A model generated the notes under the pieces. The model worked only from the letters and a program-made list of their open reading frames with translations. It was not told where the DNA came from and did no database searches. A stretch of 35,668 nucleotides of DNA, taken from IMG/VR virus record IMGVR_UViG_3300045988_166040, positions 1-35,668 of that record. The stretch is one strand, 5' to 3'. This DNA is from a virus. Below, piece after piece: positions 23,652-25,371 of the stretch (within the stretch, counting starts at the first letter, position 1; each line of letters starts with the position of its first letter). The position numbers and the translations under genes were made by a program.

Positions 23652-23680
23652 TATATACTAATTTTTATTTTGAAATACAA
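23652..23680 (-). promoter_or_regulatory. Candidate sigma70-type promoter (TTGTAT-17-TATATA) for the 22419..10846 gene block
   Basis: Read on the - strand: ttgtatttcaaaataaaaattagtatata. Confidence 0.35.
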
Positions 23681-24495
23681 AAATGCTGGACTACAACTGC
23701 TTTGTTCACGCCAATACCTGTTTTAGTATAAACTGGGTTCTGTATAGCCTTACGGTGAGGTTCTGAATTCATCCAACCATTCACCGTAGCTCGGCTAGAT
23801 ATTAAGTCGCTACCATCCAAAGACCAAGAGAGATTTTCGCTACCACTAGAACATGACTTAACCATCCATTGTTTCATATCCGCAGTGAGATTGCTCCCTA
23901 TTCCTGGTATCTCGTGCTGTCTATATCCTCGCATTATCATGTCATCAGCCTTGAGTTGTGCACTTTTCCGAACGTTCTCGTCCATGGATAGCGGTGCTAC
24001 ACCTAAACGTTGCCGCTCCTGATTTACTAGTTCCAGTATTTCTTGAGGATCAGCAGGACCGTTATCATACTTATCAAATGCTGGCTTGTATAGTTTCGGA
24101 TTATTTTCCCTTTCGCGCTTTTGCGCCTCAATAACTCCGGCGTTTGTCCTTGATTCCATGTTAAGAACAGCAGCTCCAAGAGATCCAAAACCAACAAACA
24201 GTATGAGTAAAATCGCCAACAGAGCTAGTCTAGCATCTCTGCCGCTTTTAGCTTTAAATAACTTAACCATGGCGATTACAAAAGCGGCTAGCCCAGAACA
24301 AAAGCCTAATACTGCAATAGCCACAAGGAATTCAGCTGGTATCTCAGGATTGATATGCAGCTCAGACATATACGCCCTTTGCCCCATGAAATATCCATCC
24401 AGTAGAATACAACCAACAGCGATTAAAGTGAACAAGACAGTAAAAGCCCAGGCTTTCTCGGACTTAACTTCAATCTTTTCAGGCTCTTTTTTCAT
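23665..24495 (-). CDS. Membrane-anchored CAP/SCP/YkwD-like domain protein (moron)
   Basis: Three N-terminal TM segments. The C-terminal ...GSENL..S......V.GWMNSEPHRKAIQNPVYTKTGIGV matches the YkwD/CAP signature. Confidence 0.6.
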   Translation of the reverse strand: MKKEPEKIEVKSEKAWAFTVLFTLIAVGCILLDGYFMGQRAYMSELHINPEIPAEFLVAIAVLGFCSGLAAFVIAMVKLFKAKSGRDARLALLAILLILFVGFGSLGAAVLNMESRTNAGVIEAQKRERENNPKLYKPAFDKYDNGPADPQEILELVNQERQRLGVAPLSMDENVRKSAQLKADDMIMRGYRQHEIPGIGSNLTADMKQWMVKSCSSGSENLSWSLDGSDLISSRATVNGWMNSEPHRKAIQNPVYTKTGIGVNKAVVVQHFCISK

Positions 24496-24530
24496 GCCTC
24501 CACACTAGCACAACAGGGGTAATTTGTCAA

Positions 24531-24905
24531 TTACCTACCGTGCCATGGTTCACATGCTATGCCATCACCATCTCGGTCAAGCTCTTCCCTATAGCCGGGT
24601 TCACCTTCTCGTATTGACTCAGCACCATTAGCACGTGCTTCAGAACAATTGGCGTAATACACGTCATTGTCATTGTCGTTGTCTTCATTTTCGTCTGTAT
24701 CACCAGGATCATAGTGTCTACTGCTAGGATTAGTGACTCCTGAAGGACTGCTCTTCCTACTTTGATTATGGTCTATTTGCTTACTATTGGAATTGTCATG
24801 GTGGGAGCTAAACGCATATATCCCCAGCAAAATTAGTCCTATCACAAATATGACCGTAAGTACCGCAAGTGTATTAATAACACCTTCTTTGACCCGCTCA
24901 CTCAT
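24531..24905 (-). CDS. Membrane-anchored Excalibur (Ca-binding) domain protein (moron)
   Basis: N-terminal TM, Ser/Asp-Asn-rich linker. C-terminal NCSEARANGAESIREGEPGYREELDRDGDGIACE is the Excalibur DxDxDG..CE motif. Confidence 0.65.
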   Translation of the reverse strand: MSERVKEGVINTLAVLTVIFVIGLILLGIYAFSSHHDNSNSKQIDHNQSRKSSPSGVTNPSSRHYDPGDTDENEDNDNDNDVYYANCSEARANGAESIREGEPGYREELDRDGDGIACEPWHGR

Positions 24906-25371
24906 ACAGCCACTCGCTTACTCCGCCGTGGTGTGAGCATGCTCCTCTGCCAGTAGCGCTGGATTGCCATCCGTCGCGGCAGATTGCTCCAACGCGGTAG
25001 TGTGATTGCTGTTGTACTGGTTGCGGTGCTGGCTTGGGCGTGCGGACAACAATATGAGTAGTTGGTTGAGTTAATATCTCTACCTTATCCTCGTATCCTG
25101 ATCTGCTTGGTTTGCAAATCTTTTTGCTTCCGGCGACGCCTTGCTGTTTTACTGTTTCTGTATAGCCATATTGACCCGTGTCGCCTTCATACTGTGTTTC
25201 AAACGGTATTTCTTCCGTTCTACAGTCTGAATAAGTTACAGGCTGGACTACTGGTGCCGGCGTTGCATGCTGTTGCTGACCGTTACTCATTGCTCCAGCA
25301 ATACCGGCTAATGCGGCAATACCAACAGCGGCGCCAATGACGCCTTTAACGATTTGTGGTTTACTTCCCAT
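24898..25371 (-). CDS. Membrane-anchored DUF3761-like protein (moron)
   Basis: N-terminal TM. C-terminal CRDGWQSSATGRGACSHHGGV matches the DUF3761 CSHHGG signature. Confidence 0.55.
   Translation of the reverse strand: MGSKPQIVKGVIGAAVGIAALAGIAGAMSNGQQQHATPAPVVQPVTYSDCRTEEIPFETQYEGDTGQYGYTETVKQQGVAGSKKICKPSRSGYEDKVEILTQPTTHIVVRTPKPAPQPVQQQSHYRVGAICRDGWQSSATGRGACSHHGGVSEWLYE

What the first reader, a model, noticed from the sequence alone, without database searches (positions are those of the whole stretch)
23665..25371. Three-gene moron cassette of membrane-anchored exported-domain proteins (DUF3761, Excalibur, CAP/YkwD) inside the structural operon
Each protein has an N-terminal TM anchor followed by a small extracytoplasmic domain (CSHHGG DUF3761; DxDxDG..CE Excalibur calcium-binding; YkwD/CAP). 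The cassette is insulated by a strong terminator upstream (25676..25712) and a hairpin/U-tract downstream (23612..23640). It has its own extended -10 promoter and a ~300-nt leader. Such insulated cassettes are typical lysogenic-conversion or superinfection-exclusion loci, but this domain combination is not a described system.
Basis: partly seen in the sequence, partly recalled or inferred. Interest (0 to 1): 0.7.

Follow-up and report, generated by a model that had tools for sequence, protein, structure and literature searches.

The report
Saccharibacteria prophage surface-protein moron cassette
A temperate phage of the tiny oral bacterium Saccharibacteria (TM7) carries, in the middle of its virion genes, a set of cell-surface protein genes with their own promoters; host chromosomes have repeatedly captured pieces of this set, and a long-range RNA pairing brackets it in a way that may let virion transcripts read past it.

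Summary
The three minus-strand ORFs are real. CAP, Excalibur and an unreported G5 domain pass Pfam thresholds; DUF3761 matches only through its C-terminal motif and falls below threshold. The window is an integrated prophage of Candidatus Saccharibacteria.

In 54 related loci the slot between the head genes and the next structural gene (p395) is a swap-prone accessory locus:
- A CAP gene is always present, on either strand.
- In 50/54 loci it follows a TTGACA-17-TAnnnT promoter ending 6 nt before the ATG, implying a leaderless mRNA.
- G5/DUF3761 is present in 46/54.
- The middle gene is replaceable by polytopic membrane proteins or a membrane-anchored Mrr nuclease.

Host chromosomes hold captured pieces that still carry phage flanks. 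This supports the moron reading.

- A 29-nt long-range inverted repeat brackets the cassette. It recurs in five unrelated sequence versions. Arm differences are almost all G:U-compatible in the sense RNA. It competes with the terminator/anti-SD hairpin in front of p395.
- The roughly 220-nt leader is the most conserved stretch of the region and has covariation-supported structure.

Surface exclusion is the most likely function, but it is untested.

The parts
25677..25708 (-). Intrinsic terminator ending the head-gene block (after the 95-aa ORF)
   Evidence: 13-bp stem plus T-run. In relatives the stem changes on both sides and stays paired (alignment).
25654..25662 (-). Extended -10 promoter TGTTATAAT (P_leader) directly after the terminator
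   Evidence: Read from sequence. The promoter scan finds TTGGCT-16-TACAAT here. Conserved as TGnTAnAAT in 42 unique relatives.
25430..25651 (-). Hyper-conserved non-coding leader; a three-way-junction domain lies at 25578..25444
   Evidence: Mean pairwise nucleotide identity is 0.91-0.96, against 0.78-0.87 for the capsid gene. It has 1-nt indels, so it is not coding. No Rfam hit. Of 32 pairs, 97.9% of cells are paired against 30-43% when slid, and 5 pairs are compensatory.
25401..25429 (-). U arm of the long-range duplex (GGAGATTTGGGGTTTGTGGTGTATCCTAA); it starts with a copy of the p395 Shine-Dalgarno region
24898..25371 (-). ORF1: N-terminal hydrophobic segment + G5 domain + DUF3761-type C-terminal Cys/His motif
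   Evidence: Present in 46/54 relatives, always forward. Stand-alone chromosomal homologues at 49-70% identity.
24531..24905 (-). ORF2: TM anchor + acidic linker + Excalibur Ca-binding domain; overlaps ORF1 by 8 nt, so the two are probably translationally coupled
   Evidence: Replaced in relatives by 162-164-aa polytopic membrane proteins or other genes.
24502..24530 (-). CAP promoter TTGACA-17-TAGTGT (TGC upstream of the -10), ending 6 nt before the ATG, which implies a leaderless mRNA
   Evidence: Sequence. The same architecture occurs in 50/54 loci whichever strand CAP is on.
23665..24495 (-). ORF3: three TM helices + extracytoplasmic CAP/SCP domain
   Evidence: A CAP gene is present in 54/54 relatives. 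Alleles are shared with the chromosomal aspS-VIT1 locus.
23633..23661 (-). D arm of the long-range duplex; begins 4 nt after the CAP stop codon and ends with the anti-SD CTCC
23607..23640 (-). Local hairpin AAATCTCCTT/AAGGAGATTT plus T-run. Its 3' half is the SD of the next gene and its 5' half overlaps the D arm.
   Evidence: Minimum-free-energy fold of the D region. A T-run between SD and ATG is unique to this gene in the window. The hairpin is kept as the 3' end of chromosomal CAP copies.
22419..23606 (-). p395: Gly/Asn/Gln-rich structural gene. It is not part of the cassette, but the duplex/hairpin competition would control access to its SD. The 2620-aa polyvalent protein follows it.

Best explanation
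What it is.
The cassette is the accessory (moron) locus of a temperate Saccharibacteria (TM7) phage. It encodes three envelope proteins displayed on the outer face of the membrane:
- a G5 domain with a DUF3761-type tail;
- an Excalibur Ca-binding domain;
- a CAP/SCP domain on a three-helix anchor.

How it is expressed.
It has sigma-70-type promoters of its own. One is an extended -10 with a structured leader in front of ORF1 and ORF2. The other is TTGACA-17-TAGTGT, which would make a leaderless CAP mRNA.

Function (inferred).
These proteins change the cell surface or wall of the lysogen. The most likely effect is exclusion of superinfecting related phages at adsorption, wall penetration or DNA entry. 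That would explain three observations. CAP always sits beside the ejection-protein genes. Alleles are highly diverse. Host chromosomes keep captured copies.

Insulation (structure shown, function inferred).
- The cassette is bracketed by a 29-nt sense-RNA duplex.
- Its downstream arm ends in an anti-SD. That anti-SD otherwise closes a hairpin with the SD of the next structural gene, followed by a U-run.
- Transcripts started at cassette promoters lack the upstream arm. They would form the hairpin, terminate and keep the p395 start masked.
- Transcripts arriving from upstream carry both arms. The stronger long-range duplex would open the hairpin, allowing read-through and translation of p395.
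For: Host and prophage:
- Integrase lies beside a tRNA.
- The same prophage occurs in a 714-kb Saccharibacteria contig, and all close homologues are in Saccharibacteria MAGs.

Moron status:
- In 54 loci CAP is present 54/54 on either strand, G5/DUF3761 46/54, and the middle gene is swapped.
- Alternative contents are a TM+Mrr_cat nuclease, Bro-N and polytopic membrane proteins, plus glycosyltransferase and epimerase in a sister lineage.
- PHROG 16914 is in the moron category.
- The lysis module lies elsewhere.

Own promoters:
- P_leader is conserved as TGnTAnAAT.
- The CAP promoter occurs in 50/54 loci at a fixed 6-nt distance from the ATG. In reversed copies it is a perfect TTGACA-17-TATAAT.

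Benefit without the phage:
- An identical CAP protein is found in both phage and chromosomal contexts.
- The chromosomal copy is 99.7% identical to the phage over 628 nt.
- That copy retains the D arm, the hairpin and 59 nt of the phage structural gene.
- L081 is a chromosomal G5+Excalibur fragment that still carries the phage upstream arm and the CAP promoter.

Envelope location and wall binding:
- TM segments and cysteine pairs; G5 and CAP folds.
- The CAP lipoprotein DalA binds peptidoglycan (PMC10470522).
- The CAP domain of PrgA mediates surface exclusion for plasmid pCF10 (10.1101/2020.06.18.156562).
- The Ltp exclusion lipoprotein acts outside the membrane, and CbpL fuses Excalibur to an Ltp domain (PMC5137146).

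RNA duplex:
- It is the longer of the only two inverted repeats of at least 20 nt in the window.
- It is perfect or near-perfect in every forward-CAP locus whatever the cassette content.
- Unrelated sequence versions sit at the same position in four more families.
- In all families the D arm overlaps an SD-containing hairpin followed by a T-run.
- My tally of the strings printed gives about 17 G:U sites against 2-3 A.C sites within the helices; no script counted them. One change (A-U to G-C) is compensatory.
- In the four families folded (the window type, L003, L070 and L097), the D region alone buries the SD, and U+D opens it.
- Strong promoters lie between the U arm and the first cassette gene in L070 and L097.
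- In L003 the candidate -35 lies inside the arm (alignment; arm).
Against: - There are no expression data of any kind. Promoter and terminator calls rest on sequence and conservation.
- No homology to any known exclusion or defence protein (PADLOC none; no Sie PHROG).
- CAP is universal in the lineage, which could mean a core phage function rather than a lysogen benefit.
- In the window's own family the strongest promoter (P_leader) lies upstream of the U arm. Its transcripts would carry both arms, which weakens a simple 'cassette transcripts stop, late transcripts pass' logic unless the leader controls arm availability. The promoter inside the U arm (TTGGAG-17-TATCCT) is weak here.
- A long-range helix 1.7 kb away must compete kinetically with a local hairpin.
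- The duplex-energy scan did not separate this junction from background (-42 against -36 +/- 5.5). The support therefore comes from exact complementarity, position and recurrence, not from energy.
- Base composition is not foreign (0.45 against 0.48).
Confidence: 0.55

Rival explanations
1. RNase III excision. The 29-45-bp long-range duplex is a processing stem like those flanking 16S and 23S rRNA. RNase III would cut both arms and separate the cassette RNA from the flanking head and tail mRNAs. That would uncouple their stability and translation, and would remove antisense or convergent cassette RNA from late transcripts. This can coexist with the anti-terminator model.
For: Continuous duplexes of 22-33 bp with few mismatches occur in four of the five families; the fifth (L059) has a 13-nt perfect repeat. 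The arms lie in untranslated spacers right at the cassette borders. Loci with a reversed CAP gene must produce convergent transcripts.
Against: It does not explain why the D arm always ends in an anti-SD that also pairs with the next gene's SD, nor why a U-run follows. No cleavage data exist, and the presence of RNase III in the host was not checked.
Confidence: 0.25
2. Auxiliary host-function genes. The phage carries copies of host surface proteins needed for epibiotic life (attachment to, or feeding on, the Actinomyces partner; wall maintenance). It expresses them during infection to keep the cell productive, as cyanophage psbA does. They would not act against other phages.
For: Phage and chromosome share identical or near-identical CAP alleles. 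G5/DUF3761 has stand-alone chromosomal homologues. G5 and CAP proteins bind wall or mediate adhesion (PMC10470522).
Against: The chromosomal CAP and G5+Excalibur copies carry phage-specific flanks: the D arm, 59 nt of a phage structural gene, the U arm and the CAP promoter. The flow seen here is therefore phage to host. The same slot holds a nuclease and polytopic membrane proteins in relatives. The extreme allelic diversity of CAP (37-98% identity) fits conflict better than housekeeping.
Confidence: 0.15
3. DNA-level element. The inverted repeats would be recombination sites of an invertible or mobile cassette, or simply two inward-facing copies of one promoter, with no RNA role.
For: The cassette content is exchanged between conserved flanks. 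In reversed-CAP loci the reverse complement of the D arm contains a perfect promoter for CAP, and the U arm contains a similar promoter.
Against: No locus shows the whole segment inverted; G5 is forward in 46/46 and p395 always forward. There is no recombinase in or next to the cassette. Homology anchors need not be complementary to each other, yet five unrelated arm sequences are. Arm differences are strongly biased to G:U in the sense transcript, by my tally of the strings, which DNA-level models do not predict. In forward-CAP families the reverse promoter would fire antisense into CAP.
Confidence: 0.08
4. Late structural, assembly or lysis accessory. The three proteins would be made with virion genes and act in assembly, release or wall degradation of the producing cell.
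For: The genes lie in the same orientation as the late genes in the window and are embedded between head and ejection genes. CAP is universal beside p395.
Against: The proteins have membrane anchors or export signals. CAP has its own near-consensus promoter and is on the opposite strand in about 45% of loci. A complete endolysin module lies elsewhere. Chromosomal copies persist without any phage.
Confidence: 0.05

Closest known systems
Phage morons (promoter-and-terminator-flanked extra genes in the late operons of lambdoid/HK97-type phages)
   Same: Autonomous genes sit between conserved structural genes and vary among close relatives. They have their own promoter(s) and a downstream hairpin plus U-run, and they encode envelope proteins likely to benefit the lysogen.
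   Different: The host is a CPR bacterium (Saccharibacteria). One member (CAP) is universal in the lineage. Base composition is not foreign. The downstream terminator is fused to the next gene's SD and competes with a conserved long-range pairing. No protein antiterminator is evident.
Prophage superinfection-exclusion envelope proteins (Ltp of TP-J34, Sie2009, HK97 gp15, T4 Sp/Imm)
   Same: Small prophage-encoded proteins anchored at the outer face of the membrane. Ltp targets the incoming phage's tape-measure or ejection machinery. Here CAP is always adjacent to the ejection-protein genes.
   Different: No sequence or profile similarity. The domains (G5, DUF3761 motif, Excalibur, CAP) are not those of any described Sie protein. 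Exclusion was not tested.
PrgA, surface-exclusion protein of the conjugative plasmid pCF10
   Same: A CAP domain encoded by a mobile element and displayed on a Gram-positive-type surface lowers entry of the cognate element. The fold match is weak but present.
   Different: PrgA is 92 kDa, LPXTG-anchored, and holds its CAP domain on a 40-nm coiled coil. Here the CAP domain sits directly on 1-3 N-terminal TM helices. Foldseek E is only 0.02. The nearest structures are the B. anthracis SCP protein 4ifa and Borrelia BB0689.
Long-range processing stems of rRNA operons; lambda sib retroregulation; T7 RNase III sites
   Same: Complementary sequences more than 1 kb apart in one transcript, or a structure formed only in transcripts of a particular origin, decide the fate of the RNA.
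   Different: Here the stem brackets a protein-coding accessory cassette. One arm doubles as the anti-SD of a terminator/SD hairpin. Cleavage is not shown.
Bacterial CAP/SCP (YkwD-type) and G5 wall-associated proteins (DalA, SasG/Aap, RpfB)
   Same: The folds match. DalA binds peptidoglycan non-covalently. G5 domains occur in wall-binding or adhesive proteins.
   Different: The protein scores below the YkwD and DalA family cut-offs, has a different anchor, and is phage-borne.

Membership tests
Phage moron | Extra gene(s) between conserved phage genes, variable or replaced among close relatives | tested here: met
   In 54 loci the slot content is swapped while the p95 and p395 flanks are conserved.
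Phage moron | Own promoter | tested here: met
   Met at sequence and conservation level only. TGnTAnAAT is conserved. TTGACA-17-TAnnnT lies 6 nt before the CAP ATG in 50/54 loci on either strand.
Phage moron | Factor-independent terminator downstream | tested here: met
   Hairpin plus T-run at 23640..23607, conserved in all families and kept at the end of chromosomal copies. Activity was not measured.
Phage moron | Expressed from the repressed prophage | not testable with these tools
   No transcript data are available.
Phage moron | Base composition unlike the surrounding genes | tested here: not met
   GC is 0.45 in the cassette, against 0.48-0.49 in the flanks and 0.43 for the whole window.
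Pfam CAP (PF00188) | Score above the gathering threshold and a CAP alpha-beta-alpha fold | tested here: met
   50.5 bits against 21.1. Foldseek top hits are bacterial and eukaryotic CAP structures.
TIGR02909 YkwD family / NF052539 DalA | Score above the NCBIfam cut-off | tested here: not met
   81.8 against 171, and 20.1 against 200.
Pfam Excalibur (PF05901) | Gathering threshold and the DxDxDGxxCE calcium-binding motif | tested here: met
   58.7 bits against 22, full-length match 1-36/36. DRDGDGIACE is in the translation.
Pfam G5 (PF07501) | Gathering threshold and the G5 beta fold | tested here: met
   26.4 bits against 23. The model has pLDDT above 90 over residues 46-112, and its top hits are SasG, Aap, RpfB and IgA1-protease G5 domains.
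Pfam DUF3761 (PF12587) | Gathering threshold over the domain | tested here: inconclusive
   25.8 bits against 29, covering profile positions 52-81 of 82 only. The C-terminal motif is invariant in 49 homologues. Precomputed tables list PF12587 for this protein and its relatives.
Known superinfection-exclusion / defence proteins | Sequence or profile similarity to a described family | tested here: not met
   PADLOC gives nothing meaningful. PHROGs gives only 'moron / sporulation protein' for CAP.
Known superinfection-exclusion / defence proteins | Blocks adsorption or DNA entry of a superinfecting phage | not testable with these tools
   Needs a challenge experiment.
PrgA-type surface exclusion | CAP domain on a long coiled-coil stalk with an LPXTG anchor | tested here: not met
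   The protein has N-terminal TM helices, no coiled-coil stalk and no LPXTG. The CAP fold match to PrgA has E = 0.02.
Invertible DNA segment | Both orientations of the repeat-bounded segment occur, with a recombinase nearby | tested here: not met
   No whole-segment inversion in 54 loci. No recombinase ORF lies in the cassette. The tyrosine integrase found (34543-35439) lies about 9 kb from the cassette, beside the tRNA gene.
Rfam RNA families (for the leader) | Covariance-model match | tested here: not met
   No hit at gathering score, and none of significance at E up to 10.
RNase III long-range processing stem | Duplex of at least 20 bp formed by sequences flanking a segment of one transcript | tested here: met
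   29 positions with 2 mismatches and 2 G:U in the window. 22-33 positions in three of the other four families; the fifth (L059) has only a 13-nt perfect repeat.
RNase III long-range processing stem | Cleavage within the stem | not testable with these tools
   Needs end mapping or an in vitro assay.

The most novel reading that the evidence does not exclude
Two linked claims.

1. The bracketing duplex would be a protein-free terminator that senses where a transcript started. A moron's terminator, fused to the next gene's ribosome-binding site, would be switched off only in transcripts that began upstream of the cassette. Those transcripts alone carry an SD-mimicking arm that captures the anti-SD from 1.5-2.8 kb away. 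This would solve the problem of embedding lysogen-expressed genes in a late operon without a Q-type antiterminator. The hyper-conserved structured leader might gate the upstream arm.

2. The CAP and G5/DUF3761 proteins would be a new class of surface-exclusion determinants, which Saccharibacteria repeatedly domesticate into a fixed chromosomal locus (aspS-VIT1) as phage defence.
Probability: 0.3. Interest if true: 0.85.

Novelty: new variant of a known kind. Interest (0 to 1): 0.68.

Why it matters
Almost nothing is known experimentally about phages of CPR bacteria. Here a large family of oral Saccharibacteria prophages shows a conserved accessory locus whose surface proteins move between phage and host chromosome. 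That points to a concrete and testable axis of phage-host conflict, or of surface remodelling, in an obligate epibiont whose surface is its lifeline.

The bracketing RNA pairing recurs in five unrelated sequence versions and has the same three-part SD-mimic / anti-SD / SD arrangement in each. If it works as proposed, it would show how accessory genes can be insulated inside an operon by RNA alone. The untranslated leader is more conserved than the capsid gene and shows covariation, so it is a candidate new cis-regulatory RNA.

Tried and rejected
- Megablast of the region against 50,697 phage records gave no match.
- Rfam at gathering and at permissive thresholds found nothing in the leader. 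A single-sequence fold of the leader gave z = +1, which is uninformative.
- The antisense 63-aa ORF in the leader (25452..25643) was rejected as coding. Relatives have 1-nt indels and variable ORF length.
- PADLOC scan of the three proteins and of five alternative slot proteins gave nothing.
- A lysis role was rejected. An Amidase_5+ZoocinA_TRD endolysin with small ORFs lies at 8733-10668.
- An invertible or mobile segment was rejected (see rivals).
- The repeat motif is not a general phage promoter or operator. There are only two copies in the window.
- The duplexfold energy scan used as a significance test failed. Background best energies overlap the real one, so energy is not used as evidence.
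- nhmmer and a covariance model of the leader found no copy outside the close family. A leader-like stretch in L059 could not be shown to be homologous.
- The idea that chromosomal CAP is the donor and the phage the recipient was rejected, because the chromosomal copies carry phage structural-gene remnants.
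Full report
**Observation.**
The three ORFs exist on the minus strand at 25371..24898 (157 aa), 24905..24531 (124 aa) and 24495..23665 (276 aa).
- Pfam confirms CAP (50.5 bits, cut-off 21.1) and Excalibur (58.7 bits, cut-off 22).
- DUF3761 reaches 25.8 bits, below its cut-off of 29, and matches only the last 30 profile positions. That C-terminal Cys/His motif is invariant in homologues.
- The YkwD model of NCBIfam is far below its cut-off.
- AlphaFold models agree. Residues 46-112 of ORF1 form a G5 fold closest to SasG, Aap and RpfB.
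- ORF3 has three long N-terminal helices and a CAP core closest to bacterial SCP proteins.
- Hydropathy shows one N-terminal hydrophobic segment in ORF1, one in ORF2 and three in ORF3, with paired cysteines in every exported part.
- The upstream terminator (25708..25677), the extended -10 (25662..25654), the roughly 280-nt leader and the downstream hairpin plus T-run (23640..23607) are all present.

**Context.**
The window is a prophage.
- On the minus strand it carries terminase, portal and capsid genes, a 2620-aa polyvalent protein with ART and LPD3 domains, tail genes and an Amidase_5 endolysin.
- A tyrosine integrase lies next to a tRNA gene at the window end.
- All close homologues of ORF1 lie in Candidatus Saccharibacteria genomes. 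The same prophage sits inside a 714-kb Saccharibacteria contig.
- Prophages of oral TM7 have been reported in general terms (PMC7739484, PMC10746230). I found no description of this cassette.

**Comparative anatomy.**
I collected 64 related viral contigs through the capsid protein and 12 through CAP.
- In the 54 loci that span the interval between the 95-aa head-module gene and p395, a CAP-domain gene is always present, on the forward strand in 30 and on the reverse strand in 24.
- G5/DUF3761 is present in 46 and always forward.
- The middle gene is Excalibur in 29. Elsewhere it is one of three unrelated 162-164-aa polytopic membrane proteins.
- Other loci carry a TM+coiled-coil+Mrr_cat nuclease, a 230-aa protein or a Bro-N protein.
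- A sister lineage fills the slot with a glycosyltransferase-like gene, a GroES-like gene and an epimerase (identified by reading the listed translations, since no profile search matched them).
- Phages whose capsid protein is only 27% identical still place G5 and CAP next to a giant protein.
- The slot is therefore a hot spot for envelope and defence-type accessory genes, with CAP as a constant member.

**Autonomous expression signals.**
- In 50 of 54 loci, whichever strand CAP is on, it is preceded by TTGACA (at most one mismatch), a 17-nt spacer and a TAnnnT hexamer. The hexamer ends 6 nt before the start codon, with one exception at 8 nt.
- In reversed copies the promoter is a perfect TTGACA-17-TATAAT. 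This predicts a leaderless mRNA from a constitutive-type promoter.
- In the window it is TTGACA (24530..24525)-17-TAGTGT (24507..24502).
- A gene that keeps its own consensus promoter and can sit antisense to the late operon is not simply a late gene.

**Capture by host chromosomes.**
- A conserved chromosomal locus (CorA, DsbA, CBS, AspRS, [CAP], VIT1, YtxH, MscS) carries short or long three-TM CAP alleles.
- One CAP protein is identical in a phage context and in this chromosomal context.
- At the DNA level the two are 99.7% identical over 628 nt. The identity runs from the -10 box of the CAP promoter, through CAP, to the start codon of the phage's next structural gene.
- Another chromosomal copy keeps the downstream repeat arm, the hairpin, the T-run and 59 nt of the phage structural gene's coding sequence before homology stops.
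- A third chromosomal site holds G5+Excalibur together with the phage's upstream arm, the CAP promoter and the first CAP codons.
- These remnants show transfer from phage to chromosome, so the genes persist without the phage.
- That fits a benefit to the cell, and allelic diversity of 37-98% identity fits conflict.

**The bracketing inverted repeat.**
- A 45-nt inverted repeat with a perfect 16-nt core, extending to a 29-position helix, has arms at 25429..25401 and 23661..23633. The arms lie about 30 nt upstream of the ORF1 ribosome-binding site and 4 nt after the CAP stop.
- It is the longer of only two inverted repeats of at least 20 nt in the 35.7-kb window. The motif has just these two copies.
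- Every forward-CAP locus has both arms with 0-1 mismatch in the core, whatever lies between them.
- Loci with reversed CAP have a different 33-nt pair at the same borders.
- Three more phage families have unrelated pairs of 27 nt, 22 nt (perfect) and 13 nt (perfect).
- My tally of the pairing strings printed gives about 17 G:U or U:G sites in the sense transcript against 2-3 A.C sites within the helices; no script counted them. One A-U to G-C double change was seen.
- That bias points to an RNA duplex in the late-operon sense and is not expected for a DNA-level repeat.

**Link to the next gene.**
- In all five versions the upstream arm begins with a Shine-Dalgarno-like GGAG or GAGG, and the downstream arm ends with the complementary CTCC.
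- The same CTCC also forms the 5' half of a local hairpin. The 3' half of that hairpin is the true SD of the p395-like gene, followed by 5-7 T and the ATG.
- Among the window's genes that have a Shine-Dalgarno sequence, only this one has a hairpin plus T-run between the SD and the ATG. The 135-aa gene at 10668 also has a hairpin plus T-run before its ATG, but no SD.
- In the four families folded (the window type, L003, L070 and L097), the downstream region alone buries the SD (-12 to -15 kcal/mol). Folded together with the upstream arm, it gives the long duplex and frees the SD.
- Chromosomal CAP copies have no upstream arm and keep the hairpin as their 3' end.
- Strong promoters lie between the upstream arm and the first cassette gene in two families: TGCTATAAT in L070 and TTGACA-17-TAGCAT in L097.
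- In a third family (L003) the candidate -35 lies inside the arm (alignment; arm).
- In those three families, cassette-initiated transcripts would lack the upstream arm and should terminate at the hairpin. Transcripts from upstream carry both arms and should read through.

**Caveats for this model.**
- An energy-based scan did not distinguish this junction from background.
- In the window's own family the strongest promoter lies upstream of the arm.
- No transcript data exist.
- RNase III processing of the duplex is an alternative or additional role.

**The leader.**
- The stretch 25651..25430 is the most conserved part of the whole capsid-to-p395 region, at 0.91-0.96 mean pairwise identity against 0.78-0.87 for the capsid gene.
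- It has frame-breaking indels, starts at a conserved TGnTAnAAT and matches no Rfam family.
- A three-way junction at 25578..25444 is supported. 97.9% of cells are paired, against 30-43% when partners are slid. Five pairs show compensatory changes, and none of 500 shuffles reaches the covariation score.
- A covariance model found it only in the close family. Its function is unknown. It may gate the upstream arm, since RNAalifold pairs the leader's 5' end with that arm, but those pairs never vary.

**Function of the proteins.**
There is no similarity to known exclusion or defence proteins. Precedents make a surface-exclusion role plausible:
- The CAP lipoprotein DalA binds peptidoglycan (PMC10470522).
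- The exclusion lipoprotein Ltp acts outside the membrane on the incoming phage's tape-measure protein. An Excalibur domain is fused to an Ltp domain in CbpL (PMC5137146).
- G5 domains occur in wall-binding and adhesive proteins.

I therefore rank surface exclusion or surface conversion in the lysogen first. A host-function-maintenance role comes second, and a late structural role last.

**Verdict.**
- The moron interpretation is supported by comparative evidence, but its function is untested.
- The cassette is a new member of a known kind.
- The long-range SD-mimic / anti-SD / SD arrangement and the conserved leader are new variants worth experimental follow-up.

Noticed in passing
window 25430-25651 (minus strand); three-way junction at 25444-25578: This untranslated leader is more conserved than the capsid gene. 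It has a covariation-supported three-way junction, no Rfam match, and starts at a conserved extended -10. It is a candidate new cis-regulatory RNA of unknown function.
   Followed up: partly
L163, L165, L158-L161, L166-L168 (chromosomal aspS-VIT1 locus of Saccharibacteria): A fixed chromosomal locus carries highly variable CAP alleles, in short and three-TM forms. They still have the phage's downstream arm, the SD hairpin and up to 59 nt of a phage structural gene. One allele is identical to a phage copy.
   Followed up: yes
L081 5914-6871: A chromosomal insertion of G5/DUF3761+Excalibur lies between rsmD-like and alpha-amylase genes (named by reading the ORF translations; no profile search was run). 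It retains the phage upstream arm and the CAP promoter with the first CAP codons.
   Followed up: partly
window 14534-22396 (minus strand): A 2620-aa polyvalent protein with ART-PolyVal and LPD3 domains lies directly after p395. It is probably an ejected virion protein. Its N-terminal region is very variable among relatives (38-98% identity).
   Followed up: no
window 35589-35668 and 34543-35439: A tRNA gene lies at the very end of the window. Rfam scores it at 49 bits, but ARAGORN does not call it, perhaps because of a long D-loop insert or truncation. It sits next to a tyrosine integrase and is the likely attachment site.
   Followed up: no
window 33220-33240 and 33692-33712: This is the only other inverted repeat of at least 20 nt in the window (21 nt, 86% complementary, 451 nt apart). 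It lies in the divergent region between the small terminase and the integrase-side genes, and may be operators of the lysis-lysogeny switch.
   Followed up: no
window 10669-10715 (minus strand): A terminator-like hairpin (CGGAAGC...GCTTCCG) plus T-run ends 3 nt before the ATG of the 135-aa gene that precedes the endolysin, with no Shine-Dalgarno. This may be another hairpin-at-start arrangement or a leaderless gene.
   Followed up: no
L097 5670-5800: Three direct copies of CCGCCCCGACGCGGGAG, each a small hairpin, lie in the 1-kb non-coding stretch upstream of that family's U arm. They are unexplained.
   Followed up: no
L059 10468-10660: After a glycosyltransferase-like gene (my reading of its translation; no Pfam match), a TGCTATAAT box is followed by about 190 nt of non-coding sequence that shares short words with the window's leader (GAAACCG, ACGGAGC, CTAAAGAA). 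Then come a 13-nt arm that brackets CAP alone. Homology to the leader was not demonstrated.
   Followed up: partly
L012 4412-5929, L054 9847-11355: In these relatives the G5 and Excalibur genes are replaced by a 466-505-aa protein with N-terminal TM helices, a coiled coil and an Mrr_cat restriction-endonuclease domain. This looks like a membrane-tethered nuclease, a possible abortive-infection or defence gene.
   Followed up: partly
window 22419-23606 and relatives: The first 90 or so residues of p395 differ between cassette types; tblastn matches cover only 295-303 of 395 residues in reversed-CAP loci. The recombination boundary of the swap-prone region therefore extends into the structural gene.
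   Followed up: no
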